This document shows, in pieces, positions 1-63,267 of a stretch of DNA of 64,000 nucleotides (position 1 is the first letter of the stretch; each line of letters begins with the position of its first letter). Made by a program: the position numbers and the translations under genes. Source of the DNA: Planctomycetota bacterium (GTDB lineage: Bacteria; Planctomycetota; UBA1135; UBA2386); NCBI GenBank assembly GCA_965223545.1, contig OZ245006.1:5024001-5088000 (forward strand), read 5' to 3'. The notes beneath the pieces were generated by a model that saw only the letters and a program-made list of their open reading frames with translations, was not told the DNA's origin and searched no databases.

Positions 1-2260
1 TGGCTGTTGGCGTCGAGAGTGTTGGCGCCGAGGGCGAGGGCGCCGTTGACGGTGAGGGTTCCGTTCGATTGCAGGGAGTTGGCCGCGGTGACGGCCGGGC
101 CGGTGATCAGCAGACTCGAGAACACGGAGGTCCCGGTCGAGGACTGGAAGGACTGGGCTCCGGCGCCATCGAACACGACGGTGCCACTGGTGGGAGCGAA
201 GGCGTCGTCGGTGGACAAGTTGCCGGCAAAACGCATCGTGTCCGGCGGCGCGGTGACGCTGGTTCCGGCGAAGGTGGCGTTGCCGTCGACATCGAAGACG
301 CCGGAGCTCCAGCGCGTGAGGGTGCCGGCCAGCATCTGGGCGTCGCCGGTGACGTGGAGGGTGTCGCCGGAGTAGGTACGCAGGGTGCCCGACGTGAGGC
401 GGAGCGTGCCGACCGTGACGGTGCCGCGGATGGTGAGCAGGCCGTTGCCGGTCTTGGCGGCATGCACCGTACCGGCGTGGCTGAAGGAGTAGGCGGTGGT
501 GCCGGTGCTGCCGTCGAAGACCAGGTCGCCAGTGCTCAGCAGGGTGGCGTTGCGCAGGTCGAAGTTGCCGGCGAAAGTGTGGTTGGCGGTGCCGAGATCG
601 AGCGTGCCGGAGCCGTTGACGTGGCTGTTGGCGTCGAGAGTGTTGGCGCCGAGGGCGAGGGCGCCGTTGACGGTGAGGATTCCGTTCGAGCGCAGCGCGT
701 TGCTCGCGGTGACGGCCGGGCCGGTGATCGTCAGAGTCGAGAACACGGAGGTCCCGGTCGAGGATTGGAAGGACTGGGCACCGGCGCCATCGAACACGAC
801 GGTGCCACTGGTGGGAGCGAAGGCGGCGTCGGTGGACAGGTTGCCGGCAAACCGCATCGTGTCCGGCGGCGTGGTGACGCTGGTTCCGGCGAAGGTGGCG
901 TCGCCGTCGACATCGAAGACGCCGGAGCTCCAGCGCGTGAGGATGCCGGCCAGCATCTGGGCGTCGCCGGTGACGTGGAGGGTGTCGCCGGAGTAGGTGC
1001 GCAGGGTGCCCGACGTGAGGCGGAGCGTGCCGACCGTGACGGTGCCGCGGATGGTGAGCAAGCCGTTGCCGGTCTTGGCGGCATGCACCGTACCGGCGTG
1101 GCTGAAGGAGTAGGCGGTGGTGCCGGTGCTGCCGTCGAAGACCAGGTCGCCAGTGCTCAGCAGGGTGGCGTTGCGCAGGTCGAAGTTGCCGGCGAAGGTG
1201 TGGTTGGCGGTGCCGAGATCGAGCGTGCCGGAGCCGTTGACGTGGCTGTTGGCGTCGAGAGTGTTGGCGCCGAGGGCGAGGGCGCCGTTGACGGTGAGGA
1301 TTCCGTTCGAGCGCAGCGCGTTGCTCGCGGTGACGGCCGGGCCGGTGATCGTCAGAGTCGAGAACACGGAGGTCCCGGTCGAGGATTGGAAGGACTGGGC
1401 ACCGGCGCCATCGAACACGACGGTGCCACTGGTGGGAGCGAAGGCGGCGTCGGTGGACAGGTTGCCGGCAAACCGCATCGTGTCCGGCGGCGTGGTGACG
1501 CTGGTTCCGGCGAAGGTGGCGTCGCCGTCGACATCGAAGACGCCGGAGCTCCAGCGCGTGAGGGTGCCGGCCAGCATCTGGGCGTCGCCGGTGACGTGGA
1601 GGGTGTCGCCGGAGTAGGTGCGCAGGGTGCCCGACGTGAGGCGGAGCGTGCCGACCGTGACCGTGCCGCGGATGGTGAGCAGGCCGTTGCCGGTCTTGGC
1701 GGCATGCACCGTACCGGCGTGGCTGAAGGAGTAGGCGGTGGTGCCGGTGCTGCCGTCGAAGACCAGGTCGCCAGTGCTCAGCAGGGTGGCGTTGCGCAGG
1801 TCGAAGTTGCCGGCGAAGGTGTGGTTGGCGGTGCCGAGATCGAGCGTGCCGGAGCCGTTGACGTTGCTGTTGGCGTCGAGAGTGTTGGCGCCGAGGGCGA
1901 GGGCGCCGTTGACGGTGAGGATTCCGTTCGAGCGCAGCGCGTTGCTCGCGGTGACGGCCGGGCCGGTGATCGTCAGAGTCGAGAACACGGAGGTCCCGGT
2001 CGAGGACTGGAAGGACTGGGCTCCGGCGCCATCGAACACGACGGTGCCACTGGTGGGAGCGAAGGCGGCGTCGGTGGACAGGTTGCCGGCAAACCGCATC
2101 GTGTTCGGCGGCGCGGTGACGCTGGTCCCTGCGAATGTGGCGTCCCCGTCGACGTCGAAGACGCCGCCGGAAGACCAGCGCGTGAGGGTACCGGCCAGCA
2201 TCAGGGCGTCACCGGTGACGCGGAGGGTGTCAGCGGAGTAGGTGCGCAGGACGCCCGACG
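1..2260. repeat. 621-bp tandem coding repeat, about 3.6 units in the window
   Basis: The same motif recurs at 496, 1117 and 1738 (period 621); units differ by only a few substitutions. Confidence 0.95.
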
Positions 2261-12059: not shown

Positions 12060-13748
12060 GTGCACGAACCACCCATGCTGGAGACCACGCAAGACCCCCC
12101 TGCGGCCAACCTTCCCGCAGTACAGCGCGCACGGCGCCGCCAGCCCGTGTTCGAGATGCGGTGGCGGAACCCGGAACGCGGCCTGCTGGACTACGCTTCG
12201 GCGGTCTGGGCGCGCAAGTACACCGTGTTGTTGGTGACCTTCCTGCTCGGCTTCGTCGGGCTCGTCTACGCGCTCAGCAAGCCGAACACCTACGCCTCCA
12301 AGGCGCGGCTGATGGTGCACGGCGCGGAGCTGTCGGGGACGGCGACCGACGCCGCGGCCGCTCTGCTGGGCACGGGGCGGATCCTGCCCGACCAGGTGGT
12401 GACGGCGGTCGAGATCATCCGCTCGCGCATCGTCTTGGCGCGGTTGGTGGACTCGCTCGGCTATGAGGCCATCCTCGCTCCATACCAGCCGCCGGCCGGC
12501 GACGAGGCCGACTCCGGTCTGTTCTCCCGGCTGATGGATGCGGTCCACCGCGTGCAAGCGCGGTTCTTGTCCGCGAGCGCGGTCGACTTCGGTGAGTTCG
12601 GCGAGGAGGAGCTGCGCGAGGCCGCGATCGAGGCGCTGGACACCAACCTCGAGGTGACGCACGCCGCGCGCGGCACGACGATCCAGCTGCAGTACCTGCA
12701 CACCGACCGCTTTACCGCGCAGCGGATCCTGGCGGCGGTCATGAAAGAGAGCATCGCCCGCTATGGCGAGGTCGTGGCACCGCCGGCGGGGCAGGACCTC
12801 GTCGCGGACAAGGTCGAGCAGGCTGCCGCGGAGACCAAGGCGGCCAATGAAGACGTCAGCCGTTTCGAGAGCGAGCACGGCTCGCTGGACATGACGGCGG
12901 AGATCGAATCGCTCAACGAGGCGCTGGCCGAACTCCGCGCCGCGCTGCGCGCCGCCAAGCTGGCGCTGTCCGAGAATGGCAGCGTGATCGACTCGCTGCA
13001 GGCCGAGCTGGACAATCTCAGCCCGACCGAGCGGGTTCCGGTGGAGCCGGTGTTCTCGCCCGAGGCGGGCCAATCGTGGCAAGCGGAGCTGCAGCGATTG
13101 CGCAGCTTGCGCAGCCAGCACAAGCCGGGGACCGAGGCCTACCAGACCCTCGACCGTCGCATTCGCGACTTGCTGGCCGACCGGGAGAGCCAGCAGACCG
13201 GCGGCGAAGGCCCGATCTATCAGAATCAGCCCAACCAGAGCTACTTGGAGATCGCCGGCATGATCCGCGATCGCCGCGTGCAGCTGATCGAGGCCAAGGC
13301 GCAGATCCCTGCGCTCGAAGCGGACATCGAAGGGCGCGAGGCCGAGCTGACCCGAGCGCAGCAGCTGCAGCGCGAGGCCAGCGCGCTGAGCGCGCGGTTG
13401 GAAGAGGCCGAGAAGACGCTGGAGGACTTCCGCGGCTTGGCCAAGACCTACCAGTTCACCAGCGAGCTCGATACGCGCGGGCTGACCAACTTGCGGGTCG
13501 TCGACTCCGCCTTGCTGCCGCGCACCAAGGAGGGGCCCAAGCGCGGCAAGATCCTGCTCGCGGCGATGGCCGCGGGGCTGATCTTCGCGGTGACCATGCT
13601 GCTGGTGCGCGTGCGGCTGAGCCGGCGGATGGTGCGGCACACCGACGTCGCCTTTGCCCTGGGGCGCAGCGATGTCGTCACCCTGCCGCTGTTGACCTCG
13701 CGCAATCTGCAGCGCTTCGAGGAAGCGCGCCGGAGGGGTTGGGAATGA
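12060..13748 (+). CDS. Polysaccharide co-polymerase / chain-length determinant (GumC/Wzc membrane domain)
   Basis: Two TM segments flank a coiled-coil; PNTYASKARL; VVDSALLP..P before TM2. Confidence 0.85.
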   Translation: MHEPPMLETTQDPPAANLPAVQRARRRQPVFEMRWRNPERGLLDYASAVWARKYTVLLVTFLLGFVGLVYALSKPNTYASKARLMVHGAELSGTATDAAAALLGTGRILPDQVVTAVEIIRSRIVLARLVDSLGYEAILAPYQPPAGDEADSGLFSRLMDAVHRVQARFLSASAVDFGEFGEEELREAAIEALDTNLEVTHAARGTTIQLQYLHTDRFTAQRILAAVMKESIARYGEVVAPPAGQDLVADKVEQAAAETKAANEDVSRFESEHGSLDMTAEIESLNEALAELRAALRAAKLALSENGSVIDSLQAELDNLSPTERVPVEPVFSPEAGQSWQAELQRLRSLRSQHKPGTEAYQTLDRRIRDLLADRESQQTGGEGPIYQNQPNQSYLEIAGMIRDRRVQLIEAKAQIPALEADIEGREAELTRAQQLQREASALSARLEEAEKTLEDFRGLAKTYQFTSELDTRGLTNLRVVDSALLPRTKEGPKRGKILLAAMAAGLIFAVTMLLVRVRLSRRMVRHTDVAFALGRSDVVTLPLLTSRNLQRFEEARRRGWE

Positions 13749-14470
13749 ACGACATCCCGGTCGAGGCCCAGCCTCGCGAGGGCAGCCCGTTTCTCAGCTG
13801 GCCGCGTCCCAACGACGAGTGGGAGCGGTCGCTGAAATCGCTCGTGCCGTACTGCGAAGAGCTGTGGAACCGCGTCCAGCTGGCCGACCCGCGGCCGGCG
13901 CACGGCAGTATCCGCATCTTCACCGTGGCGGGCTTGGTCGAGGGCGATGGCGCTTCGACGACCGCGACCGGCTTGTCCTACTACCTGGCGAACAGCCTCG
14001 GTGCCCGCGTGCTGTTGGTCGAGGCCGACCTCCGCGCGCCCTACCTGCGCAGCATGGGGCTGGTGCCCCGCGGGCCCGGGCTTGCCGGCGTCTTGCAGCG
14101 CCAAGTGAAGCTCAAGTACGTGGTCTTCGAGCTGCCGCGCGTCGGCTTCCACGTGCTGCCGGCCGGCGCAACGGTCGCCAGCCCGACGGCGCACATCAAT
14201 CCGTCCAAGCTCGGCCGGCTACTGCACGGAGTCGAGTCGCATTTCGACGTCGTGCTGTTCGACTCGCCGCCGCTGACGCTCGCCCCCGAGGCGCGCCACC
14301 TGGTGGCGATCTCGGACGCGACGATCCCCGTGCTGCGCAGCGGCCGCGCGCTGCCCGAGCAGGCCGCCTACTGGCTGGCCAAGATCCCCGAGTACGGCGG
14401 CAGGGTCGGCGCGGTGTGCCTCAACGGCGTCGAAGCCGTACTGCCGACCTCCGTCCGCGGTCTCTTCTGA
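13745..14470 (+). CDS. CpsD/CapB-like BY-kinase domain protein with degenerate Walker A
   Basis: EGDGASTT, LLVEADLRAP, VLFDSPP; start overlaps the co-polymerase stop (ATGA). Confidence 0.8.
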   Translation: MNDIPVEAQPREGSPFLSWPRPNDEWERSLKSLVPYCEELWNRVQLADPRPAHGSIRIFTVAGLVEGDGASTTATGLSYYLANSLGARVLLVEADLRAPYLRSMGLVPRGPGLAGVLQRQVKLKYVVFELPRVGFHVLPAGATVASPTAHINPSKLGRLLHGVESHFDVVLFDSPPLTLAPEARHLVAISDATIPVLRSGRALPEQAAYWLAKIPEYGGRVGAVCLNGVEAVLPTSVRGLF

Positions 14471-14491
14471 CCGCAGAACACACCCATCCCG

Positions 14492-14570
14492 GCGCACGTA
14501 CGGAGCCAGGCTCCGATTCATCACCCGGCGCCGCCGGGTGATGAATCGGAGCCTGGCTCCGTACGTGCGC
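14492..14570. repeat. REPIN-like perfect palindrome (39-bp arms)
   Basis: gcgcacgtacggagccaggctccgattcatcacccggcg / c / exact reverse complement, between convergent genes. Confidence 0.95.
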
Positions 14571-15898
14571 TACCCGTAGCGCAGTCGGATCGTGCGGATC
14601 GGATTGGTGGCCAGCGAGTCCTCTTCCGCCGACCGCTGCGCGCCGGCCAGCATGCCCATGAGGCCGCCCATGATCAGGTAGTGGGGGGTGCGCAGGAAGG
14701 AGTCGCCCCATGCCGTGCACACCAGCCAACCGAGCACCGGCACCAGGCCGGCGCCGACTTGTTGGAACAGGACACGGCGCGGAAACGTCCCCTGGCCGAT
14801 CACCCAGATGCTCGACAGCCAGAACGCCGACAGCAGCAGCATGCCGGGGTAGCCGAAGTGCAGCACCGCGAGCAGGAGCTCGCCGTCGATGATCTCCCAG
14901 AACTCGCGGGCGAAGGACTCGCCGTGGCCGAAGATCGGGCTGGCCTCGACCATCGGCTTCCACGTCTCGATCTGAAGGAAGCGGAAGAACAGGGTCTGGC
15001 CGGACTCGCTGGACGCGTCGGTGAGCGCCAAGCCGGCCAGGATGCCCGAGACGCCGGGCTGCAGCATCCAGACGAAGAACCCGATCCCGATTCCGCCGAG
15101 CAAGCAGGCAAACCAGCCCTGGCGTCGCAGGAGCACTGGCGCGAACAGCACCAGCGCCAGGCCGATGATCGGTCCGCGGCTGAGCGACATCAGCACGCCG
15201 ATGCAGCCCGCGATGATGCCGAAGTCGAGATAGCGTCCGGCGTGGCGGTAGATCTCCTCGCCGGCGCGCCGCACCGCGACCATCAGCAGGGTCAGCAGCA
15301 CGAGGGTGTGGCCCAGCTCGAGCTGGTTCTGGGTGAAGACGATGGGCCGGTAGATGCCCAGCCGGTAGAGGCCGATGACTTCCTCGCCGTATACCCAGCG
15401 CTGGAACCGCGGATACATCCGCGCCTCGAAGGCCATCAAGAGCAGGTAGACGATGACGATGGGCACGACGAGCCGGACCAGGCTCACCATGTCGCTGGCC
15501 CGCTGCAGGTAGAGCCGGCCGGCGAAGAAGGGCACGACGAGGGTCAAGAGCTGCGTCAGCAGCATCGATGCCGCCGCGTAGGCGCCCTGGTTGAGCGCGA
15601 CGCTGAGCGCCGTCCAGCCCACGTAGGCCAGCAGGAAGAGATCCGGCCACAGGAACCGGAAGCGTCGCCAGTTCTCGCGTGGTGAAAAAAGGAACAGCAG
15701 GCCCGCCGCCGCGGTGACGCAGGTCGTGCGGTCGAGGGTGGGGACGCCGGGCAGGTCGTACTCGGCGAACGCAGGCAAGAACAGCGGGCCGAGCAGGAGC
15801 AGCACCGGCACCAGCCGTTGCGGGCCGATGACGAACCCGCCCCAGAGGGTGAACCCAAGGGTCAAGAACAGGACCAGGATTGCGAAGTCTTGTCCCAC
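14570..15898 (-). CDS. Wzy/O-antigen ligase-like polytopic membrane protein
   Basis: About 12 hydrophobic segments, SLSRG motif, FRFLQ...PIFGHG loop; located in an EPS locus. Confidence 0.75.
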   Translation of the reverse strand: MGQDFAILVLFLTLGFTLWGGFVIGPQRLVPVLLLLGPLFLPAFAEYDLPGVPTLDRTTCVTAAAGLLFLFSPRENWRRFRFLWPDLFLLAYVGWTALSVALNQGAYAAASMLLTQLLTLVVPFFAGRLYLQRASDMVSLVRLVVPIVIVYLLLMAFEARMYPRFQRWVYGEEVIGLYRLGIYRPIVFTQNQLELGHTLVLLTLLMVAVRRAGEEIYRHAGRYLDFGIIAGCIGVLMSLSRGPIIGLALVLFAPVLLRRQGWFACLLGGIGIGFFVWMLQPGVSGILAGLALTDASSESGQTLFFRFLQIETWKPMVEASPIFGHGESFAREFWEIIDGELLLAVLHFGYPGMLLLSAFWLSSIWVIGQGTFPRRVLFQQVGAGLVPVLGWLVCTAWGDSFLRTPHYLIMGGLMGMLAGAQRSAEEDSLATNPIRTIRLRYG

Positions 15899-16082
15899 GG
15901 TGCGGTGCGCAGGGCGGCGTCGGCCCGGGTCTATCTTCGGCAGACGCGCGTGCGTCTGAGTAGCTCTTTCGGCGGGGCTCTTTCGGCGATGGCGCCGGCA
16001 TCATACGCAGCTGGCTCCCGGCTCAACTCGGCGATCCACCCTGGTCGAAAGACGCTGCATGGAGGAGACTTGCGCCCCCTCG

Positions 16083-17381
16083 ATGACCGCCGAAGACACC
16101 GACGCCGCGGGCGCTGGCGTTCGACGGAAGAGCGATGCACCGCCTCTGCTCGGGGTGCGAGTCGCCTACCTCGTCAATCAGTATCCGAAGGTCAGCCACA
16201 GCTTCATCCGCCGCGAGATCCACGCGCTGGAGGCGTTGGGGTGTGACGTGGAGCGCATTTCGGTGCGCCGCGTCGACGAAACCCTCGCCGATCCGGCCGA
16301 TCGCCGCGAAGCGGAGCTCACGCACGTGATCCTGGGTCGTGGCGCGCTACCGCTGCTGCGCGCGGTGGTCGGCACCGCGGTCACGGCGCCCCGCCGTTGG
16401 TTGGCGTCCCTGCGCTTGGCCTGGCGCCTGGGGCGGCGCTCGGACCGCGGCCGGCTGCGGCACCTGGTCTACTTTGCCGAGGCTTGCGTTTGCCTGCCCT
16501 GGCTGCGCGAGGCCGGCGCCCAGCACATCCACGCCCACTTCGGCACCAACTCGGCGATGGTCGCCATGTTGATCCATGCGCTGGGCGGGTCGCGCTACAG
16601 CTTCACGGTGCACGGGCCGGAAGAGTTCGACAAGCCGGAGTTCATCGCGCTCGGCGAGAAGATCCGGCGCGCGGCGTTCACGATCGCGATCAGCGACTTC
16701 GGCAAGAGCCAGCTCTACCGCCAGGTCGAGTACGACCACTGGCGCAAGATCGCCGTGGTGCGTTGCGGTGTCGACCAGCGGTTCCTCGGCGCGCCGGTGG
16801 TGCCGGCTCCGACCGCTCCGCGGTTGGTCTGTGTCGGTCGACTCTGCGAGCAAAAGGGACAATCGCTGTTGGTGGAAGCGGCGGCGCAGCTGGTGGCGGC
16901 GGGGCGCGAGCTCGAGCTGGTGCTGGTCGGCGATGGGCCGATGCGACCGCAGATCGAGGAGCTGATCCAGCGCGCGGGTCTGCGCGGATCGATCCGCATC
17001 ACCGGGTGGTTGGGCGAAGCCGAGGTGCTGCGCGAAATCGTGTCGGCGCGGGCGCTGGTGTTGCCGAGCTTCGCGGAAGGGCTGCCGGTCGTCATCATGG
17101 AAGCGCTGGCGCTCGGGCGGCCGGTGATCGTGACGCGCATCGCCGGCATTCCGGAGCTGGTCGAGGACGGCACCAACGGCTGGTTGGTGACCGCCGGCAG
17201 CGTCGATCAGCTCGTGCATGCCATGGGCGAGGCGCTCGGCGCCAGCCCCGAGTTGCTCGATCGGCTCGGAGCCGCCGGCCGCAAGCGCGTGTTGGCGCAG
17301 CACGACGCCCATGCCGAGGGCGCCAAGCTCGGTGGTCAGATCGCCCGGGCGATCGCCGAGCGGCCACCGGAGGCGCGGTGA
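16083..17381 (+). CDS. Glycosyltransferase family 4 (WcaL-like)
   Basis: HIHAHFG, VGRLCEQKG, PSFAEGLPVVIMEA (EX7E). Confidence 0.93.
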   Translation: MTAEDTDAAGAGVRRKSDAPPLLGVRVAYLVNQYPKVSHSFIRREIHALEALGCDVERISVRRVDETLADPADRREAELTHVILGRGALPLLRAVVGTAVTAPRRWLASLRLAWRLGRRSDRGRLRHLVYFAEACVCLPWLREAGAQHIHAHFGTNSAMVAMLIHALGGSRYSFTVHGPEEFDKPEFIALGEKIRRAAFTIAISDFGKSQLYRQVEYDHWRKIAVVRCGVDQRFLGAPVVPAPTAPRLVCVGRLCEQKGQSLLVEAAAQLVAAGRELELVLVGDGPMRPQIEELIQRAGLRGSIRITGWLGEAEVLREIVSARALVLPSFAEGLPVVIMEALALGRPVIVTRIAGIPELVEDGTNGWLVTAGSVDQLVHAMGEALGASPELLDRLGAAGRKRVLAQHDAHAEGAKLGGQIARAIAERPPEAR

Positions 17382-17493
17382 TGCCCCGGCTCGAATCGCC
17401 GGTGGTCCGCGGGCGGTTTGCCAACGGCGCGGCGATGGGCATGATGCACCGCCGCCACGGCCGGCCCGGGCCTCGTCCAGTCGTCGGAAGACC

Positions 17494-18831
17494 ATGAACC
17501 CTCGCTCCCAGTACGCCGCCGAGCTGGCAAAGAAGATCGAAGACCGCTCCGCGACGGTGGCCGTCGTGGGCCTCGGCTACGTCGGTCTGCCGTTGGTGCG
17601 CGTGATGCACGCGGCCGGCTTCCAAGTCCTCGGTTTCGACACCGACGTCAAGAAGATCCGCATGCTGGAGCGCGGCGAGGCCTACCTCCAGCACCTGGGC
17701 ACCGATCTCACCCAAGAGCTGGCTGCCTCCGACCGCTTTACGCCGACCGCGCGCGCCGAGGACTTGGCCGCGGCCGACGCGATCATCCTGTGCGTGCCGT
17801 CACCGGTCGGACCGCACAACGAGCCCGACATGACCTACATCGTGTCCTCGACGCGGATGGTTGCCGGTGTCTTGCGGCGCGGCCAGCTGGTGTCGCTGGA
17901 GTCGACGACCTATCCGGGGACGACGCGCGGCGACTGCAAACCGCTGCTGGACGCGACGGGGCTGGAATGCGGGGTCGACTACTTTCTCGCCTTCAGCCCG
18001 GAGCGAGAGGACCCTGGCCGCGAAGGAGTGTCGACGCAGACCATCCCCAAGCTGGTGGGAGGGCTCGACGACGTCAGCGGCGATTTGGCGCACCAGCTCT
18101 ACTCCGCCGCGGTGGCGCAGGCGGTGCGCGTCGAGTCGGCCGAGGTCGCCGAGGCGGCCAAGCTGCTGGAGAACATCTACCGCGCGGTCAACATCGCGCT
18201 GGTCAACGAGCTCAAGCCGGTGCTGCTCAGCATGGGCATCGACATCTGGCGCGTGATCGAGGCGGCGGCGACCAAGCCGTTCGGGTTCCAGCCGTTCTAT
18301 CCCGGGCCCGGCCTCGGCGGCCACTGCATCCCCATCGATCCGTTTTACCTGACGTGGAAGGCGCGCGAGTTCGGTCACCACACTCGGTTCATCGAGCTGG
18401 CGGGTGAGATCAACAGCTCGATGCCCGGCTTCGTCGTGCAACGGACGATGGAGGGACTCAACGAGGTCGGCAAAGCAGTCAAGGGGGCGCGGGTGTTGAT
18501 CTGCGGGGTCGCCTACAAGCCGGACATCGACGATGTGCGCGAGACCCCGGCCGCCGAGATCATCGAGCGCCTCCTGCAGCACGGCGCCGACATCAGCTAC
18601 CACGACCCGCATGTCGCTCGACTCGGTGGAATGCGCAAGTACGACCTGGAGCTCGCATCGGTGCCGTTGACGCCCGAAGCGCTGCGCCAGAGCGACGCGG
18701 TGATCGTCGTCACCAATCACAAGGCCATCGACTGGGCCCTGGTCGCGCGCGAAGCGCCGTTGATCGTCGACACACGCGACGTGCTATCCAAGCTCCCGGA
18801 TCCACCCACCGGCCTGGTCATCAAGGCCTGA
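17494..18831 (+). CDS. Nucleotide-sugar dehydrogenase (UDP-GlcNAc 6-dehydrogenase, WbpA-like)
   Basis: VVGLGYVGLP, ESTTYPGTT, FSPERED, GGHCIPID, AYKPDIDD. Confidence 0.93.
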   Translation: MNPRSQYAAELAKKIEDRSATVAVVGLGYVGLPLVRVMHAAGFQVLGFDTDVKKIRMLERGEAYLQHLGTDLTQELAASDRFTPTARAEDLAAADAIILCVPSPVGPHNEPDMTYIVSSTRMVAGVLRRGQLVSLESTTYPGTTRGDCKPLLDATGLECGVDYFLAFSPEREDPGREGVSTQTIPKLVGGLDDVSGDLAHQLYSAAVAQAVRVESAEVAEAAKLLENIYRAVNIALVNELKPVLLSMGIDIWRVIEAAATKPFGFQPFYPGPGLGGHCIPIDPFYLTWKAREFGHHTRFIELAGEINSSMPGFVVQRTMEGLNEVGKAVKGARVLICGVAYKPDIDDVRETPAAEIIERLLQHGADISYHDPHVARLGGMRKYDLELASVPLTPEALRQSDAVIVVTNHKAIDWALVAREAPLIVDTRDVLSKLPDPPTGLVIKA

Positions 18832-18862
18832 CGCCCGACGGCAGGTGCAGGTACGGAGCCAG

Positions 18863-19112
18863 TCCTGCCCCGGCAGATTTGTCGGCCCTTCAGGGCAGGA
18901 AACTAGCCGCTGAGGAAGGGGGAGGGGAACGTGTGAGGGGCCCGGCAGCTACGCCCCCAATAGCCACTGGAGCACGTTTGCCCCAGAGCCAGTCTGGGTC
19001 CGAGTTGGCCATCCTTCACTGGTGAGGGGCACGTCGCCGTGCCCACTCCCGCAGGTCAGATTCGTTTGATCGCCGCCTCGGGCCGGGCCCACCACAACAA
19101 TGAGGATGAAGT
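18863..19112 (+). ncRNA. Putative bridge RNA region of IS110
   Basis: 250-bp structured non-coding end containing caggtcag (matches element right end plus core) and gagccag/ggagc (matches target). Boundaries not resolved. Confidence 0.6.
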
Positions 19113-20495
19113 ATGGCTGGGAAGAGCAGAACGAGGAAGGGCAAGAAGCCCGCAGCGGAAGTATTGCCAGTCGTGAAGCCCAACGCCGCCGGAATCGACA
19201 TCGGCAGCCGCGAGCACTGGGTGTGCGCAGCAGCACCCGACGGCAGTCGTCCGATCAAGCGATTCGGAACGACGACGCCCCAGCTAGAGGCGCTCGCGGA
19301 CTGGCTGGAGGAGCTCGGAGTGCGATCCGTCGCGATGGAGAGCACCTATGTCTACTGGATTCCCGTCTACGAGCTACTCGAGTCGAGAGGCTTCGAGGTC
19401 ATCCTCGCGAATGCCCGCGAGGTGAAGAACGTGCCGGGCCGCTCCAAGTCCGATGCCAGCGATTGCAGTTGGCTGCAGAAGCTACACACCTATGGCCTCA
19501 TTCGCGCTTCGTTCCGGCCTCCGAAGGACATCTGTGCGTTGCGGACCCTGCAACGCCATGCCGCGTCTTTGATCGCGCAGCGCACGCGCCACACGCAGTT
19601 GATGCAGCGGTCACTGGATCAGATGAACGTGGCGATCCATCGCGCGGTAACGGACATCACCGGCAAGACCGGCCTCGCGATCATCCGCGCGATTCTCGCT
19701 GGTGAACGCGACCCTCGAGCGCTCGCCAGACTGCGTGATCCGCGCTGCAAGATCTCCGAGAAGGAGCTCGCGGATCACTTGCAAGGGACCTGGATCGAGG
19801 AGCACATCTTCACTCTCGCTTCGGGCTTGCGGATGCTCGAGCACACCGACCACGAGATCGAGTCGGTCGAGAAGCGATTGATGGCGATGATCGAGGACCT
19901 GCAACCGGAGGAAGCCAAGACGGCTGACGTCCCCGAGCATCCAGACCCCCGCAAGGAGAGGAGCATCCGAACGAAGGGCGGCCGGGAGCTTCGCGATGCC
20001 CTCTGCCGGCTCGTCGGGTGTGATCTCACGCGAATCGACGGTATCAGCCCGAGCACGGCCATGATCGTGCTCACCGAGGTCGGCTACGACCTCGATGCTT
20101 TCCCGACCGAGAAGCACTTCGTCTCCTGGCTACGCCTGTGCCCACGTCAAGCCGTCTCGGGTGGAAAGCGCATCAAGAAGCACCGCAACAACATCGCGGT
20201 CAGCAGGATCGCCACGGTCCTCCGGATGGCCGCCCTGTCCCTCCAACGTACTCAGACAGCTCTCGGCGCACACTTCCGCAAGATCGCCCGCGCGAAGGAC
20301 GGCAACGTCGCCATCTTTGCCATCGCCCGCAAACTGGCCCTGCTCATCTACCGCATGCTGAAGTTCGGCCAGGACTACGTAGACGAAGGCGCCAAGGCCT
20401 ACGAGGAGCGCTTCACCCAGCGACGCATCGTCGGACTCCGACAGAACGCTAAATCCCTCGGGTACAAGCTCATACCGATCGTCGAGGCTGGGTGA
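19113..20495 (+). CDS. IS110 family transposase/recombinase
   Basis: DEDD RuvC-like residues GIDIG, AMES, KSDASD; C-terminal IDGIS...SGGK domain. Confidence 0.95.
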   Translation: MAGKSRTRKGKKPAAEVLPVVKPNAAGIDIGSREHWVCAAAPDGSRPIKRFGTTTPQLEALADWLEELGVRSVAMESTYVYWIPVYELLESRGFEVILANAREVKNVPGRSKSDASDCSWLQKLHTYGLIRASFRPPKDICALRTLQRHAASLIAQRTRHTQLMQRSLDQMNVAIHRAVTDITGKTGLAIIRAILAGERDPRALARLRDPRCKISEKELADHLQGTWIEEHIFTLASGLRMLEHTDHEIESVEKRLMAMIEDLQPEEAKTADVPEHPDPRKERSIRTKGGRELRDALCRLVGCDLTRIDGISPSTAMIVLTEVGYDLDAFPTEKHFVSWLRLCPRQAVSGGKRIKKHRNNIAVSRIATVLRMAALSLQRTQTALGAHFRKIARAKDGNVAIFAIARKLALLIYRMLKFGQDYVDEGAKAYEERFTQRRIVGLRQNAKSLGYKLIPIVEAG

Positions 20496-20605
20496 GTTTC
20501 AGGTCAGGCTCCGATTCATCACCCGGCCACGGCGCTCGAACGAAGCCAGGCTCCGCCGGGTGATGAATCGGAGCCTGGCTCCGTACCTGCACCTGCCGTC
20601 GGGCG

Positions 20606-21997
20606 TCAGGCGCCGCCGCCGCGGAACACTTCGCGGACGGTCTTGGCCATGATCTTCAAGTCCATCGCCAGCGACCAGCCGTCGATGTACTGCATGTCGA
20701 GTTCCATCCAGCGGTCGAAGCTGATCGCGTTGCGGCCCGACACCTGCCAGATGCAGGTGAGTCCCGGGCGCACGGACAGGCGGCGGCGCTGCCACCAGTC
20801 GTATTGATCGACTTCGGATGGCAAGGGCGGCCGCGGTCCGACGATGCTCATGTCGCCGCGCACGATGTTGATGAGCTGAGGTAGCTCGTCGAGGCTGTAC
20901 TTGCGGATGAAGCGGCCGACGGCGGTGATCCGGGGGTCGTGCTTCATCTTGAACACCGGTCCGGCCTGCTCGTTCTGCGCTGCCAGGCGCGCTTTCAGCT
21001 CTTCGGCGTTGACCACCATCGAGCGGAACTTGATCAGGGTGAAGGGCCGCGCGTGCAGCCCCAGCCGCGTCTGCTTGAAGAAGACCGGCCCCTTGCTGCT
21101 CAGCTTGATGGCGACGGCGATGGCCAAGAGCACCGGGGACAGCAGGGTGAGGCCGACCGAGGCGCCGACCAGGTCGAGCACGCGCTTGACGCCGAGTCGG
21201 TGGCGGTCGCCAAAGCCGGTGTGCACCGTGTAGGTCGGGACATCGCCGGTCGCCGTCACCGAAGTCCGCTCGAGCGGAATGCCGAGGAAATCCGGTGCGA
21301 CCCGGCAGTTCAGGCCGGCAGTCTGCAGGAACTTGAGCACCGATTTGACCTCGGTGGTCCAGACCCCGTCGGACGGGCAGATGAGCACTTCGTCGACGGC
21401 GTGCTCGCGCAGCACTCGCTCGAGATTGGCGACCGGCCCCAGCGGCCGGACGCCGGCCGCGGCGCGCAGGTGGTCCTCGCCGGTGAAGTTGAGCTCACCG
21501 AGGATGACGATGCCGTAGTGGGGGTGCTGCCGGTAGTCGTCCGCGATGCGGCGGGCCGTCGAGCCCCGGCCGACGAACAGCACGTTGCGCGTGTTGTGGC
21601 CGCGGCTGCGCAGCATCAAGAGCGCGCTGCGCAAAGCGATGCGCAGACCGACCATGGCGCCGATGGCGACGATCAGCGCTCGCGTCGGCTCGAGCTGGGC
21701 GGCTCCGCCGAGGACGACGCGCACGAGCACCAGCGACGACAGCGTCAAGAACGCCGTGACGAGCAGGTGCTTGAGTTCGGGGATCCAGGTCGTCGTCCGG
21801 CGGGACGCATACAGATCGAGCTGGACCGCCAGCCAAGTCCAGACCACGCCGGTCAGCATCAGCTCGGCGAGCAGATGCCAGACCCCGGGCAACGGCTGGC
21901 CCGCCGCACAATGGCCCACAACGGCCCCGAGGTACAGCACGACCATGTCGAAGCCGTAGATCAGGCTGGCGAAGGCGCGTCTGTGCTGGAGGAGCAT
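20606..21997 (-). CDS. Priming undecaprenyl-phosphate glycosylphosphotransferase (WcaJ-like)
   Basis: N-terminal TMs, KRVLD, KFRSM, DPRIT, SLDELPQL, GDMSIVGPRP, RPGLT. Confidence 0.95.
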   Translation of the reverse strand: MLLQHRRAFASLIYGFDMVVLYLGAVVGHCAAGQPLPGVWHLLAELMLTGVVWTWLAVQLDLYASRRTTTWIPELKHLLVTAFLTLSSLVLVRVVLGGAAQLEPTRALIVAIGAMVGLRIALRSALLMLRSRGHNTRNVLFVGRGSTARRIADDYRQHPHYGIVILGELNFTGEDHLRAAAGVRPLGPVANLERVLREHAVDEVLICPSDGVWTTEVKSVLKFLQTAGLNCRVAPDFLGIPLERTSVTATGDVPTYTVHTGFGDRHRLGVKRVLDLVGASVGLTLLSPVLLAIAVAIKLSSKGPVFFKQTRLGLHARPFTLIKFRSMVVNAEELKARLAAQNEQAGPVFKMKHDPRITAVGRFIRKYSLDELPQLINIVRGDMSIVGPRPPLPSEVDQYDWWQRRRLSVRPGLTCIWQVSGRNAISFDRWMELDMQYIDGWSLAMDLKIMAKTVREVFRGGGA

Positions 21998-22186
21998 CGG
22001 TCGAGGGGATGACGCCGGCGGTCTGCAGGGAATATCGGCAGTTGGCGGCCAAAACGTGATGTCTCGCAACGAGAATCCGCCCCGGCGGGATGCTGCCCAA
22101 GCGCACCGGCGGGTTGCCTCGTGGCCGTCCGCTTTCTAGTTTCGCGCTCCCCCGCGGTGACCCGCTCCGGCACTGTGGCCCGTCCC

Positions 22187-23404
22187 ATGACTCCCACGCC
22201 CAACGGACTGCCCCGCGACGCTGACGCCTCCGGCCGAACCATGGGCGCGGAGGAGCTGGAGCTGCTGGCTCGGGTCATCGACAGCGGTGTGCTCAACGTC
22301 ACGCGCGGTGAGTTCGCCGGGCGTTTCGAGCGGGCGTTCGCCGCGCGGATGGGAGCGCCGCATGCCGTGTGCTGTGCATCCGGATCGGCTGCCGTGCACG
22401 CCGCGGTCGCGGCCCTCGGCCTCGATCTCGGCGACGAGGTCGTGACCACCGCGATCACCGACATGGGCGCGATCATGCCCTTGCTCTACGAGGGCTTGGT
22501 GCCGGCGTTCTGCGACGTCGATCCGGCGACCGGCAACGTCACCGCGGAGACCATCGAACGCGCGCTGACGCCGCGCGCGCGCGCGGTCATCGTCACTCAC
22601 TTGTTCGGCCGTGCGTGTGAGATGGCGCCGATCCTCGAGCTGGCCCGCTCTCGGGACCTGGTCGTGATCGAGGATTGCGCGCAGGCTTATCTCGCCAGTG
22701 ATGCGCGGGGCATGGCCGGCCAGCACGCGCCGTTGGCGGTGTTCAGCCTGCAGCAGTCCAAGCACATCACCACCGGCGAGGGCGGGATCGTGCTCGCTGC
22801 CACCGAAGGCCTGGCGCAGCGTGTGCGCCAGTTCGTCAACAAGGGATGGGGCTACGGGCTGCCACGGCCCGACCACGACTTCCCGGCCCTCAACTACCGC
22901 ATGACCGAGCTGCAGGCGGCGGTGGCCTGCGCGCAGCTGGGCAAGCTCGACACCGTCGTCGCGCGGCGCCGGCAGACGGCGGCGGCGTTCCTGGCCGAAC
23001 TCGATGGCGTGGCCGGACTCGCGCATCCTCCGCTCTCGCCGGGCGCCGCCCACTCCTACTGGCGCATGTCACTGCAGGTCGACCCCGCTCGAGTGGCCGG
23101 CGGTGCGCGCGGCCTCAGCCAACGACTGGCGCAGCGCGGCATCGCCGCGCAGCCGCACTACATCCAAAAGCCCGCCTACCAGTGCCGCGTGTTCCGCGAG
23201 TGGCGACGGTTCGCGGTGACCCGGGCGGTCTACGAGCGCGCCGGTGTCGAGCCGGCACCGCCCGCCGCGATGCGCCGGGGGACCGAGGAGTTCCTCGCCA
23301 GAGTCCTGGTGCTGCCCTGGAACGAGCACTACTCGTCCGACGACGTGCGCCGATTGGCGCACGCCCTGGCGAGCGCGGCCGGTGCTCCGCGGGTCGAGGC
23401 CTGA
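22187..23404 (+). CDS. DegT/DnrJ/EryC1/StrS aminotransferase (WbpE-like)
   Basis: IEDCAQA, SLQQSKHITTGEGG (PLP Lys), NYRMTELQAA. Confidence 0.93.
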   Translation: MTPTPNGLPRDADASGRTMGAEELELLARVIDSGVLNVTRGEFAGRFERAFAARMGAPHAVCCASGSAAVHAAVAALGLDLGDEVVTTAITDMGAIMPLLYEGLVPAFCDVDPATGNVTAETIERALTPRARAVIVTHLFGRACEMAPILELARSRDLVVIEDCAQAYLASDARGMAGQHAPLAVFSLQQSKHITTGEGGIVLAATEGLAQRVRQFVNKGWGYGLPRPDHDFPALNYRMTELQAAVACAQLGKLDTVVARRRQTAAAFLAELDGVAGLAHPPLSPGAAHSYWRMSLQVDPARVAGGARGLSQRLAQRGIAAQPHYIQKPAYQCRVFREWRRFAVTRAVYERAGVEPAPPAAMRRGTEEFLARVLVLPWNEHYSSDDVRRLAHALASAAGAPRVEA

Positions 23405-23405
23405 C

Positions 23406-24404
23406 GTGGGCGCCTTGGCGATCGGTGTCGTCGGCGCGGGTGCGGTGGCGCAGGACTACCTGGCGGTCGCCGCGCAGGCCGACGACCTCGACGTGGTCGC
23501 CGTGGTCGACTGCGATCCGCGCGCGGCCGAGGCCGCGGCGGCGCGGTGTGGTGGAGTCGCGCAACCGAGCGTCGGCGCGATGCTCTCGGCCGGCGGGGTC
23601 GATGCGGCGTTGGTGCTGACGCCGCCGGCCACGCACGAGCCGCTCGCGTTGGAGCTGCTCGCCGCCGGCCTGCCGGTGCTCTGTGAGAAGCCGATCGCCA
23701 CCTCGTCTGCGTCGGCGGCGCGGATGTTCCAGGCGGCCTCGCGCGCCGGCGTGGCGCTGATGATGGCTTCCAAGTTCCGCTACGTGCCCGACATGCAGGC
23801 CGCGCGGGCGATGGTCGCGCGCGGCGATCTCGGCGACATCGTGCTGCTCGACAACGCGTTCTGCGCGCCCGTCGACATGGTGGGCCGGTGGAACTCCGAC
23901 CACGCGGTGGCTGGCGGCGGCGTGCTGATCGACAACGGCTGCCACGCGGTCGACATCGTGCGCTTCCTGCTCGGCCCGCTGGTGCGCATTTGGGGTCACT
24001 TCGGGCGGCGCACGACGCGGATCGACGTGGAGGACACCGTCCGACTGGTGATCGAGACCGCTGGCTCGGCGGTGGCGCAAGTCGATCTGTCCTGGGCCGT
24101 CGACAAGGGCAACGACTACTACGTCGGGTTGCAGGGCACCCGGGCGACGCTGCAGCTTGGTTGGGCGGGCTCGCGCTGGCGGGCGCACGGCGAGCGCGCG
24201 TGGCGTGAGTTCGGCGACGGCTATGACAAGCGGTCCGCGTTTGCCGCACAGCTGCGCAACTTTGCCGCCGTCATCCGCGGCGAGGAGGCGCCGCTGGTCA
24301 CCGCCCAAGACGCGGTGGAGTCGCTACGGGCGATCGAGGCAGCCTATCGGTCCGCGCGCACCGGCCGCTGGGTTCCGCTGCACACCTCCACCGGGAGCAG
24401 CTGA
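23406..24404 (+). CDS. Gfo/Idh/MocA oxidoreductase (WbpB-like)
   Basis: GVVGAG, LCEKP, GGGVLIDNGCH. Confidence 0.92.
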   Translation: MGALAIGVVGAGAVAQDYLAVAAQADDLDVVAVVDCDPRAAEAAAARCGGVAQPSVGAMLSAGGVDAALVLTPPATHEPLALELLAAGLPVLCEKPIATSSASAARMFQAASRAGVALMMASKFRYVPDMQAARAMVARGDLGDIVLLDNAFCAPVDMVGRWNSDHAVAGGGVLIDNGCHAVDIVRFLLGPLVRIWGHFGRRTTRIDVEDTVRLVIETAGSAVAQVDLSWAVDKGNDYYVGLQGTRATLQLGWAGSRWRAHGERAWREFGDGYDKRSAFAAQLRNFAAVIRGEEAPLVTAQDAVESLRAIEAAYRSARTGRWVPLHTSTGSS

Positions 24405-24405
24405 T

Positions 24406-24942
24406 ATGAGCGGTGATTCCACACCCGGCGCCGTGGTGCATCCAACCGCGTTGGTCGAAGACGATGTCGAGCTGGGGCCGGGCACCGTAGTTTGGGACGG
24501 CGTGCACATCCGTCGCGGCGCGCGCGTCGGCCGAGACTGCATCATCGGCGAGAAGACCTACCTCGCCTACGACGTGCGCGTCGGGGACCTGGTCAAGATC
24601 AACGCCCACGTCTACGTCTGCGCGGGCGTCACCATCGAGGACGGAGTGCTGATCGCGGCGCACGTCGTGTTCACCAACGACCGCGCGCCGCGCGCCACCG
24701 ACGTCGACCTGAAGCGGCTGCTGCCATCGACGCCCGGCGACCACACCGAGCGGACGCGCGTCGGCCGCGGTGCCTCGATCGGCGCCAACGCGACCATCGG
24801 ACCGGGCGTCGCCATCGGCGCGTTCGCCATGGTGGGCATGGGTGCCGTGGTCACCAAAGACGTGCCGCCGCACGGCCTGGTCATCGGCAACCCGGCCCGA
24901 CTGGTCGGCCAGGTCGCCCGCGATGGCACCCGAGTCCCATAA
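24406..24942 (+). CDS. Hexapeptide-repeat N-acetyltransferase (WbpD-like)
   Basis: Left-handed beta-helix repeats, VFTND, GASIGANATI, GNPAR. Confidence 0.9.
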   Translation: MSGDSTPGAVVHPTALVEDDVELGPGTVVWDGVHIRRGARVGRDCIIGEKTYLAYDVRVGDLVKINAHVYVCAGVTIEDGVLIAAHVVFTNDRAPRATDVDLKRLLPSTPGDHTERTRVGRGASIGANATIGPGVAIGAFAMVGMGAVVTKDVPPHGLVIGNPARLVGQVARDGTRVP

Positions 24943-57172: not shown

Positions 57173-57276
57173 CACGTACGGAGCCAGGCTCGCAATCATC
57201 ACTTCGCGGTGCCTCGCCGGCCGATGGCCGGCGAGGCACCGCGAAGTGATGATTGCGAGCCTGGCTCCGTACGTGC
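57172..57276. repeat. REPIN-like perfect palindrome (51-bp arms, 3-nt loop)
   Basis: gcacgtacggagccaggctcgcaatcatcacttcgcggtgcctcgccggcc-gat-exact reverse complement. Confidence 0.95.
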
Positions 57277-57286
57277 ATTCTGCGTC

Positions 57287-61253: not shown

Positions 61254-61759
61254 GCGTCCGGCGCCTCGAATCGTCGAGCTGCGACAACATTTTCGAGGCG
61301 ACGTCGCTGCCATGGCGACAATGCCGCCGCGCCGGAGGCTCGGAGAGACAGTGCCTCCTGGCTCAGCGCGGCGGCGGATGGGTCGGACCTTCCAAAGCGC
61401 TCCGGCAAGAGCGGCATCCGAGTTTGGTTGCGGCCGTGGCCGCGCTGAGCCTCCGGCGCCTCGAATCTTCGAGCTTCGACAACATTCTCGAGGCGACGTC
61501 GCTGCCATGGCGACAACGCCGCCGCGCCGGAGGCTCGGAGAGACAGTGCCTCCTGGCTCAGCGCGGCGGCGGATGGGTCAGGCCTTCAAAGCCGCTCCGG
61601 AAAAAGCGGCATCCGAGTTTGGTTGCGGCCGTGGCCGCGCTGAGCCTCAGGGTCCGCAAATCTTCGCGCGGCGACAACCTTTCGGAAGGCTCGATGCCGC
61701 TGGAACTTCGACCACGCAGCTCCCGGAGGCTTCCATGAGAGGGGCGATCCCGTCAACAG

Positions 61760-62052
61760 CTCTTTGTCTGTGGATCTGTTCTTCTTGAGAATCTGGGCGC
61801 CTTGGCGCCGCCCTGCGCGACAAGCTTCGGACTCCGCAGGCTTCCATACGCACTCTGATGGCCTCGTCCGAGACCGGTGCACGATGAGATCCGTCCGACC
61901 CGGCGCAGCTTTCTCGATAACGGCCTCGAGGGCCAAGCCTCCGGTCGCTGTCGCCGGGATCGGGCGGTGAGTCTTCAGCAGTGCAGGAGCGGCATCACGC
62001 CAGGTTCCTCCACGGTATTCGGTTGGTTGGGGGTGGGGCGATCATGGTTGGG
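61760..62052 (-). ncRNA. Putative bridge/seek RNA of the IS1111 element
   Basis: An internal loop presents CCGGAGGCU and UCGAG, matching both strands of the insertion site. Boundaries approximate. Confidence 0.75.
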
Positions 62053-63129: not shown

Positions 63130-63267
63130 GGGTCGATCTGCTCCTTTGATTTTGCAGCGCCATTGTGTGGCGACTGCGTCGGAGGGATCGACCCTCTCAT
63201 CCCATCTCGAAGACAACACTGGCCTCTGGGGTTTGGTTGCGGCCGTGGCCGCGCTGAGCCCTCCGCC

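What the first reader, a model, noticed from the sequence alone, without database searches (positions are those of the whole stretch)
18826..20611. Second IS110 inserted at the centre of a REP hairpin, with donor and target matches in its left end
Seen: the element splits gtacGGAGCC-A-GGCTCC with CAG repeated at both junctions (18860-18862, 20505-20507). The 250-bp left end contains caggtcag (19052-19059), identical to the element's right end plus core (20500-20507). It also has target-like ggagc (18969-18973) and gagccag (18986-18992). agga at 19103-19106 is complementary to the left-end tcct but may just be the RBS. Known: IS621 targets E. coli REPs through a left-end bridge RNA. Inference: an independent REP-targeting bridge recombinase with a larger 460-aa enzyme and a palindromic target. 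The target guides are less clean than in the IS1111 element.
Basis: partly seen in the sequence, partly recalled or inferred. Interest (0 to 1): 0.7.

Follow-up and report, generated by a model that had tools for sequence, protein, structure and literature searches.

The report
Bridge recombinase with displaced donor guide
This is an RNA-guided jumping gene that inserts into a repeated DNA palindrome; its guide RNA appears to read both ends of the element on the same DNA strand at two separated sites, which points to a folded single-stranded intermediate rather than the usual double-stranded one.

Summary
This is a 1.65-kb IS110 element (460-aa DEDD recombinase) with 23 near-identical copies. 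All 23 follow the left half of one REP-like palindrome, and 22 of 23 have both halves. Comparing 104 homologous left-end RNAs shows a conserved two-loop bridge RNA.

The core is AG, not CAG, so the IS621-type CT lies on the template strand.

New: the second donor guide (19011-19018) does not match the DNA next to the core. It is identical to a site 23-30 bp inside the left end (18885-18892), between a conserved hairpin and a subterminal inverted repeat. It covaries in 16 of 17 informative independent pairs. Both donor guides therefore read one strand.

Best model (inferred, about 0.55): the donor is a folded single strand, like integron attC, and insertion is one-strand exchange plus replication. 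ISPpu9 appears to share the anatomy, but mutating its hairpin did not stop circle formation.

REP targeting by IS110 is known. I did not find the displaced same-strand guide in print. New variant of a known kind.

The parts
18826..18862 (+). Left part of the interrupted REP pair (left arm of a 57-bp perfect inverted repeat); GTAC tag 18851-18854; target-guide site GAGCCAG 18856-18862
18861..18862 (+). AG recombination core, left junction (CT on the template strand)
   Evidence: AG core also reported for ISPpu9
18863..20507 (+). IS110 element, 1645 bp counting one core; 23 copies at 99.45-100% identity
18870..18885 (.). Left-end DNA hairpin (CCGGCA / TGTCGG). Its base is fixed at about +9 from the core in homologues while its length varies; 6 of 23 own copies carry a G>A change that perfects the stem
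18885..18892 (+). Displaced site for the left donor guide (6 of 8 identical to 19011-19018 here; 6-8 of 8 in 32 of 32 close homologue ends)
18899..18904 (+). Left subterminal inverted repeat GAAACT, partner of 20495-20500
18939..19089 (+). Predicted bridge RNA core: closing stem, target-binding loop, donor-binding loop
   Evidence: 19 of 29 pairs with two-sided changes; 0 of 500 shuffles as high
18962..18966 (+). Weak left target guide (AGCC, then a conserved A); pairs with the coding strand at core G plus GCT (20507-20510)
18969..18973 (+). GGAGC: inner stem of the target loop, not a guide
18986..18992 (+). Main target guide GAGCCAG (RTG equivalent); pairs with the template strand of the left flank
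18993..18994 (+). Handshake-like dinucleotide TC, equal to the first two bases of the left end
   Evidence: 65 of 73 concordant at position 1; 6:0 independent pairs
19011..19018 (+). Left donor guide ATCCTTCA; matches the displaced site, not the DNA next to the core
19052..19059 (+). Right donor guide CAGGTCAG; pairs with the template strand of the right end
19103..19106 (+). AGGA, ribosome-binding site 6 nt before the ATG; outside the conserved RNA
19113..20495 (+). 460-aa IS110 recombinase: RuvC D29/E76/D114/D117, coiled coil with helical insertion at about 175-222, Tnp domain with S349-G350, extra C-terminal helix 427-448
20495..20507 (+). Right end: inverted repeat AGTTTC 20495-20500, donor-guide site 20500-20507, AG core 20506-20507
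20508..20611 (+). Remainder of the interrupted REP (GCTCC...) and the second, inverted, unoccupied REP of the pair

Best explanation
An active IS110 bridge recombinase of the AG-core (ISPpu9-like) clade. SHOWN by sequence comparison: (1) a two-loop left-end RNA; (2) a 7-nt guide reads the left target flank plus core and a weak guide reads about 3 bases of the right flank, giving a 10-nt address (GAGCCAG-GCT) that mostly occurs in the host's REP; (3) one donor guide reads the right end; (4) the other donor guide reads a site 23-30 bp inside the left end on the same (template) strand; (5) that site lies between a hairpin and a subterminal inverted repeat at fixed spacing. INFERRED: the template strand folds back, with the inverted repeats as outer stem and the hairpin as U-turn. 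This makes a pre-opened bubble of about 14 nt a side that mimics the melted 14-bp donor of IS621. The donor loop can then hold both element ends on one strand, in the integrated form and in the circle. The element is copied out as a single-stranded circle. It inserts by exchange of the core-bearing strand only and replication completes the insertion, as with integron attC, because a second exchange would cut inside the left end.
For: Left donor guide: no complementarity to the core-adjacent left end at any of 5 registers (48 strands, 25 pairs). Identity inside LE+13..45: mean best match 6.07 of 8 against 4.65 foreign (n=43), 7.27 against 5.33 in the close clade (n=15), permutation p=0.0002; reverse-complement and target-loop controls null; independent tree pairs 16:1 with 8 ties. 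Base-by-base tracking in 29 close ends, with all four bases matched at one position (28 of 29). Flanks of the 8-mer differ between RNA and DNA, and no covarying partner was found inside the RNA. Hairpin: +9 pairs with the base before the site, 90-97% paired at 5 positions in 30 ends. Inverted repeat: compensatory changes, 54 of 59 and 38 of 59 paired against 31.6 and 14.8 shuffled. Computed junctions fold with this outer stem in 13 of 14 shown on the coding strand and 14 of 14 on the template strand, shorter and mixed with a competing fold in this element itself. A second RNA cassette in L159 sits behind its own left-end-like site, which matches its own guide better (6 of 8) than the first RNA's (4 of 8, by eye). 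IS621's LDG also ends C130-A131 with A131 not paired to DNA (PMC11208158), and the handshake covaries, fixing the guide assignments. ssDNA circles and top-strand-only insertion are reported for IS621 and CazIS110-1. ISPpu9 needs its A box and B box for circles.
Against: No experiment, no RNA data and no circle were seen (contigs only, no joints). In ISPpu9, mutating the A-box hairpin or removing the left target flank still gave circles by end-point PCR (PMC12288879 section 17). The inner hairpin stem is largely sequence-conserved, and slid registers +/-1 still pair at single positions. Inverted repeats also covary when proteins bind double-stranded DNA. This element is itself a weaker case: 6 of 8 match, a 6-nt gap instead of the usual 5, and a competing left-end fold. 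The signal fades in distant homologues (5.43 against 4.63; only 3 of 28 reach 7 of 8). Only 15 distinct guides in the close clade. No replichore bias of copies (11 of 23 against 61 of 94 empty sites, p=0.155).
Confidence: 0.55

Rival explanations
1. The displaced guide is real but works on double-stranded DNA. It anchors the left end by local strand invasion during excision, while the other donor guide invades the right end. The hairpin and inverted repeats are protein-binding or accessory features, and insertion is ordinary or relies on the right-end half-match.
For: The IS621 excision complex binds two separate duplexes across the loops (PMC13626964). Half-match recombination is reported. 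ISPpu9 hairpin mutants still circularise. A tandem duplication here joined the right end to an unrelated AG 170 bp upstream.
Against: It does not explain why a variable-length hairpin sits exactly between core and site with fixed spacing at its base, nor the fixed 4-5 nt gap to the inverted repeat (40 of 47). In a double-stranded circle the two sites would need a U-turn within about 22 bp (inference).
Confidence: 0.27
2. A canonical IS621-type bridge system with a decayed left donor guide. The internal match is co-inherited sequence, a local duplication or a regulatory RNA feature (for example via an Asr9-like antisense RNA).
For: The 8-mer is of low diversity and partly conserved. ISPpu9 has antisense regulation over its 5' region.
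Against: 16:1 independent pairs. Identity stops at the 8-mer edges. No covarying RNA partner. All four bases tracked.
Confidence: 0.12
3. REP choice depends on the recombinase reading the REP stem-loop, as proposed for ISPpu10, rather than on RNA pairing alone.
For: 22 of 22 insertions at 10-mer sites are in REPs and none in the 16 non-REP 10-mer sites. ISPpu10 stem-loop effect. The left target guide is short and its signal moderate: 17:5 pairs, five registers tried, another register gave 5:16.
Against: The 10-nt RNA address already has 110 of its 126 sites in REPs. Many homologues hit non-palindromic sites with variable right flanks. The core lies in the hairpin loop, so a folded REP would hide the guide sites (inference).
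Confidence: 0.2

Closest known systems
ISPpu9 of Pseudomonas putida (PMC12288879: abstract, sections 4, 17, 18 part 1, 12 part 1, supplement passages)
   Same: IS110 group, AG core, REP target, long left end. Its 43-bp A box has a hairpin at +9..+20 and ends CAAACA; its 16-bp B box has TGTTTG seven bases before the end, the same anatomy as here (by eye). The ISPpu9/ISPsy35/ISWpi13 cluster representative in Durrant Supplementary Table 1 is about half identical to this protein over the RuvC domain (by-eye count).
   Different: Different REP and host. This element has no downstream ssr9 cassette (right end 12 bp after the stop). In the parts read, ISPpu9's guides were not mapped and no displaced guide was described. 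ISPpu9 itself was not aligned here.
IS621 / ISCro4 bridge recombinases (PMC11208160, PMC11208158, PMC13626964: passages)
   Same: Same fold (Foldseek E 8e-13, TM 0.76 by target length, 20% identity), DEDD plus serine, left-end two-loop RNA in target-then-donor order, handshake dinucleotide, REP target.
   Different: 460 against 328 aa. CT core on the template strand. Long right guides and weak left target guide. Left donor guide reads a displaced site on the same strand as the right donor guide, not the opposite strand beside the core. Inverted repeat of 6-8 bp, asymmetric, against 2-3 bp.
IS1111-group seekRNA elements (PMC11187229: section 6 and passages)
   Same: Subterminal inverted repeats; the top-strand-complementary guide precedes the bottom-strand one.
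   Different: Non-coding region upstream, not downstream; protein 460 aa against 330-350; repeat at -7 on the right and +37 on the left.
ISPpu10 (10.64898/2026.03.19.712850: abstract, results part 2)
   Same: REP-targeting IS110; tolerant LTG and strict RTG; DNA secondary structure implicated.
   Different: CT core; the structure is in the target, not the donor.
Integron attC recombination (recalled, not from a call)
   Same: Folded single-stranded substrate, one strand exchange, replicative resolution (analogy for the proposed mechanism).
   Different: Tyrosine recombinase with no RNA guide; not homologous.

Membership tests
IS110 family | DEDD_Tnp_IS110 plus Transposase_20 domains; NF033542 above cut-off | tested here: met
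   (248 bits, cut-off 140)
IS110 family | DEDD tetrad and SG serine motif | tested here: met
   D29, E76, D114, D117 invariant in 70 sequences; S349-G350 present, S in the consensus but not in the 90% list
IS110 family | Specific, single-orientation target with a dinucleotide core | tested here: met
IS110 family | Circular intermediate; expressed RNA bound by the recombinase | not testable with these tools
   one search listed no RNA holder; laid contigs only and found no joints
IS110 group (IS621 type) | Long left end with two-loop bridge RNA, short right end | tested here: met
   250 bp against 12 bp
IS110 group (IS621 type) | CT core on the recombinase-coding strand | tested here: not met
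   AG on the coding strand
IS110 group (IS621 type) | LDG pairs with the opposite strand next to the core | tested here: not met
   no signal at 5 registers; displaced same-strand match instead
IS1111 group | Long downstream non-coding region holding the RNA | tested here: not met
   RNA is upstream; right end 12 bp
IS1111 group | Subterminal inverted repeats of 7-17 bp | tested here: inconclusive
   6 bp here, about 8 bp in the clade, asymmetrically placed
ISPpu9-like clade | AG core with A-box hairpin and short B box | tested here: met
   (comparison by eye)
ISPpu9-like clade | Protein relatedness to ISPpu9 itself | tested here: inconclusive
   only the cluster representative was seen, about half identical by eye; ISPpu9 was not fetched
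ISPpu9-like clade | Asr9 antisense RNA | not testable with these tools
   needs RNA data
REP (target) | High-copy short palindrome in inverted pairs | tested here: met
   106 sites against 0.34 expected; pairs
REP (target) | A RAYT gene flanked by inverted copies | tested here: inconclusive
   Y1_Tnp gene lies between two inverted occupied copies; NF047646 63.5 bits, below the cut-off of 80
REP (target) | 5' tetranucleotide, most often GTAG (PMC8266576, passages) | tested here: not met
   the tag is GTAC
REP (target) | Extragenic location | not tested
   many copies follow a TGA by eye; no genome-wide annotation was made

The most novel reading that the evidence does not exclude
A widespread clade of about 450-aa, AG-core IS110 recombinases, probably including ISPpu9, uses an obligatorily folded single-stranded donor. 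Both donor guides of the bridge RNA read one strand, which is brought into register by a subterminal inverted repeat and an internal hairpin. This would be an RNA-guided counterpart of integron attC recombination: it recognises both element ends at once, copies out as ssDNA and inserts by a single strand exchange.
Probability: 0.5. Interest if true: 0.87.

Novelty: new variant of a known kind. Interest (0 to 1): 0.72.

Why it matters
In the papers read, how IS110 elements recognise both ends for excision, and whether the intermediate is single-stranded, are stated open questions. This clade offers a sequence-encoded answer with a simple compensatory test. It could explain why standard donor reconstructions from 25 nt around the core would miss a guide in such elements. 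It reinterprets the ISPpu9 A/B boxes and Ssr9. If true, it gives a programmable recombinase that takes single-stranded cargo. The REP targeting itself is ordinary.

Tried and rejected
CAG core: rejected. ggagc and agga as guides: rejected. A '2-nt bulge' reading of the 5' guides was replaced by the simpler register in which the conserved CA faces the core: C in 67 of 77 AG-core RNAs, TA in 7 of 11 AA-core RNAs. 'Half-guide donor loop with a dead LDG' was my reading until and was dropped. A fold-back target read by the target loop: no signal. An extra stem between LE+1..8 and the spacer: no signal across 32 homologue ends. One search's guide z-scores are circular (boundaries were picked by guide match) and its mid-range scores are confounded by kinship, so I rely. 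Rfam: no family. Viral contigs: no match. 0 of 60 related genomes had a match at E<=1e-60 (not found with this query). No sigma-70-like promoter in 18780-19150. No RNA holder listed; no joints in 4 contig sets. No replichore bias. The plasmid search gave only unnamed IS110 hits below 60% identity. The ISPpu9 5' RNA sequence was not found in the 2021 paper's supplement, so the displaced-guide prediction for ISPpu9 is untested. Earlier scan findings were not available.
Full report
1. The observation. Every motif is at the stated coordinates. The ORF 19113-20495 encodes a 460-aa IS110 recombinase (Pfam PF01548 and PF02371; NF033542 at 248 bits). The genome holds 23 full copies at 99.45-100% identity and one relic. 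All 23 follow GAGC-CAG and 22 are followed by GCTCC, always in the same orientation. In a chromosome with the copies removed, the 13-bp palindrome occurs 106 times against 0.34 expected. One Y1-type transposase gene lies between two inverted copies of the element, so both repeats flanking it are occupied. Its RAYT score is below the curated cut-off, and the tag is GTAC rather than the usual GTAG. I call the target REP-like, probably a true REP.

2. Homologues. I collected 208 loci and dropped 22 redundant own copies. A left-end RNA profile hit 140 of the remaining 186 loci and gave 104 distinct RNAs; 138 rows could be parsed. In 40 of the 43 close RNAs listed, the consensus is a closing stem with two internal loops, target loop first. 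Of 29 pairs, 19 show two-sided changes, and 0 of 500 shuffles reach this (the structure came from the same alignment, and kinship inflates such counts). Rfam has no such family.

3. The long guides and the core. The 3' strand of loop 1 (18986-18992) equals the left target flank plus AG. The 3' strand of loop 2 (19052-19059) equals the right end plus AG. In a fixed-window control the own 7-mer is found in 75 of 107 and 95 of 110 rows, and foreign 7-mers in 27 of 6099 and 7 of 2530 trials. Homologue targets end in TAG, AAG or GAG while right ends keep CAG, and a tandem duplication in this genome joined the right end at a TAG 170 bp upstream (an assembly error is not excluded). The core is therefore AG, which is the IS621-type CT on the template strand. 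The base after guide 1 tracks the first base of the left end (65 of 73; 6:0 in independent pairs), as expected for the handshake guide that follows RTG in IS621 (PMC13626964 passages). So these long guides are the RTG and RDG equivalents.

4. Target choice. The 5' strand of loop 1 is weakly complementary to the right flank: 2.46 against 1.46 pairs of 6 over 62 strands, p=0.0005; 17:5 in independent pairs, five registers tried. Here it is AGCC at 18962-18965. The 7-mer alone has 1936 sites. The resulting 10-mer has 126 sites, 110 of them in the repeat, and takes 22 of 23 insertions. RNA pairing can thus largely explain REP targeting; a structural contribution as in ISPpu10 is not excluded.

5. 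The unexpected feature. The 5' strand of loop 2 (19011-19018) should pair next to the core on the left-end side. It does not, at any of five registers. Instead it is identical to the coding strand 23-30 bp inside the left end: mean best match 6.07 of 8 against 4.65 for foreign guides (43 distinct guides), 7.27 against 5.33 among 15 close ones, and 16:1 with 8 ties in 25 independent pairs. Reverse-complement and loop-1 controls are null. In 29 close ends the variable positions track base by base. The flanks differ and no covarying partner exists elsewhere in the RNA. The site follows a hairpin whose base is fixed (+9 pairs with the base before the site; 90-97% paired in 30 of 61 ends, those at 50% identity or more with a match of 6 or more) while its length varies. 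It precedes, mostly by 4-5 nt (40 of 47), a GAAAC that is the inverted repeat of the right end's GTTTC, with compensatory flanking changes (54 of 59 and 38 of 59 against 31.6 and 14.8 shuffled; 59 ends with a motif match of 4 or more). Six of the 23 own copies carry a change that perfects the hairpin. The signal is weaker in distant homologues, and this element is a 6-of-8 case with a competing fold.

6. Mechanism. Both donor guides are identical to the coding strand, so both pair with the template strand, in an order that needs a U-turn between them. Folding one strand of the joined ends gives an outer stem from the inverted repeats, a bubble of about 14 nt a side and the inner hairpin. That is the geometry of IS621's opened 14-bp donor built from one strand. 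With the usual 5-nt gap, the guide's final CA falls opposite the core (inference); IS621's LDG also ends C-A. The same fold can form in the integrated element with the body looped out, so the donor loop could hold both ends at once. A second strand exchange would cut inside the left end, so I infer one-strand exchange and replicative completion. Single-stranded circles and top-strand-biased insertion are reported for IS621 and CazIS110-1 (first parts of 10.64898/2026.08.31.748434 and 10.1101/2025.10.25.684509). Confidence: displaced guide pairing about 0.85; folded single-strand mechanism about 0.55. Against it: ISPpu9 circles survive hairpin mutation and loss of the left flank; there is no strand bias of copies; nothing here is experimental. 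The AlphaFold model (pLDDT 92.5) matches IS621 with an extra helical insertion and a C-terminal helix; a role for them in binding the stem is a guess.

7. Known relatives and novelty. It is a member of the IS110 family and IS110 group by protein and layout, but fails two IS621-type features (core strand, LDG position). ISPpu9 is the closest characterised element: AG core, REP target, and A and B boxes with the same hairpin and inverted repeat by eye; its cluster representative is about half identical by eye. ISPpu9 itself was not aligned. REP targeting is therefore already known. I found no description of a displaced same-strand donor guide in searches. I saw listings, passages and named sections only: PMC11208160 passages and one supplement row (one PDF supplement unreadable); PMC11187229 section 6 and passages; 10.64898/2026.10.21.760802 section 8 and passages; 10.1101/2025.05.14.653916, 10.1101/2024.06.21.599552 and PMC8266576 passages; 10.64898/2026.08.14.744561 abstract and passages; PMC8450116 listing and supplement search. 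Figures, bioRxiv supplements (including Fig. S12 of the language-model preprint, which shows deviant bridge RNAs) and most subscription papers were not visible and could contain it. The attC analogy is recalled.

8. Verdict. Real feature. New variant of a known kind; interest 0.72.

Noticed in passing
G000:C1:3912820-3917193 (L210): A 333-aa Y1/RAYT-like gene with a C-terminal helix-turn-helix-like region is flanked by two inverted copies of this IS; both of its flanking repeats are occupied, forming a potential composite element. A similar gene at C1:1729907 has no such repeat within 1.5 kb.
   Followed up: partly
G000:C1:4826228-4829693: Tandem duplication of the IS plus 170 bp of left flank, with the right end joined at an unrelated upstream AG; looks like a natural right-end-only half-match event.
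   Followed up: partly
G000:C1:988112-988227: Relic copy: 114 bp of the gene start fused to the right end, with a non-REP right flank. It is followed by a repeat also seen after copy 5179644.
   Followed up: no
L159:1630-1850; also L165:2354-2499 and L025:2304-2433: A second bridge-RNA cassette lies downstream of the recombinase. In L159 it has its own left-end hairpin, guide site and inverted repeat, and a target guide matching the host element's right end. This suggests that Ssr9/MITEPpu9 of ISPpu9 is a second bridge RNA.
   Followed up: partly
G000:C1:2861513 and 10 other places: A second IS110 family (11 copies, 1953 bp common length, about 500 aa) has a related left-end RNA motif whose guide matches its right end, but its boundary lies 8 nt beyond the matched AG; no tblastn hit to this protein at 1e-3.
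   Followed up: no
window about 61700-63230 (G000:C1:5086662-5087093, minus strand): IS1111-type element with a long right end, 3 copies in the genome; its flanks do not show this REP.
   Followed up: no
L077, L081, L097-L100, L136, L158, L164, L183, L004, L137: Several homologues have target guides that match right ends of the same clade, so they insert at the ends of related elements.
   Followed up: no
L179, L184, L047, L192, L021, L181, L173; L013, L020: Sub-clades with AA or AT cores instead of AG; in the AA clade the core-facing C of both loops becomes T.
   Followed up: partly
window 14498-14570, 24958, 57176-57290: Unoccupied copies of the same GTAC-tagged repeat, two of them as inverted pairs.
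   Followed up: partly
window 13076-24942: The insertion lies between convergent genes (nucleotide-sugar dehydrogenase, sugar transferase) of a polysaccharide biosynthesis cluster.
   Followed up: no
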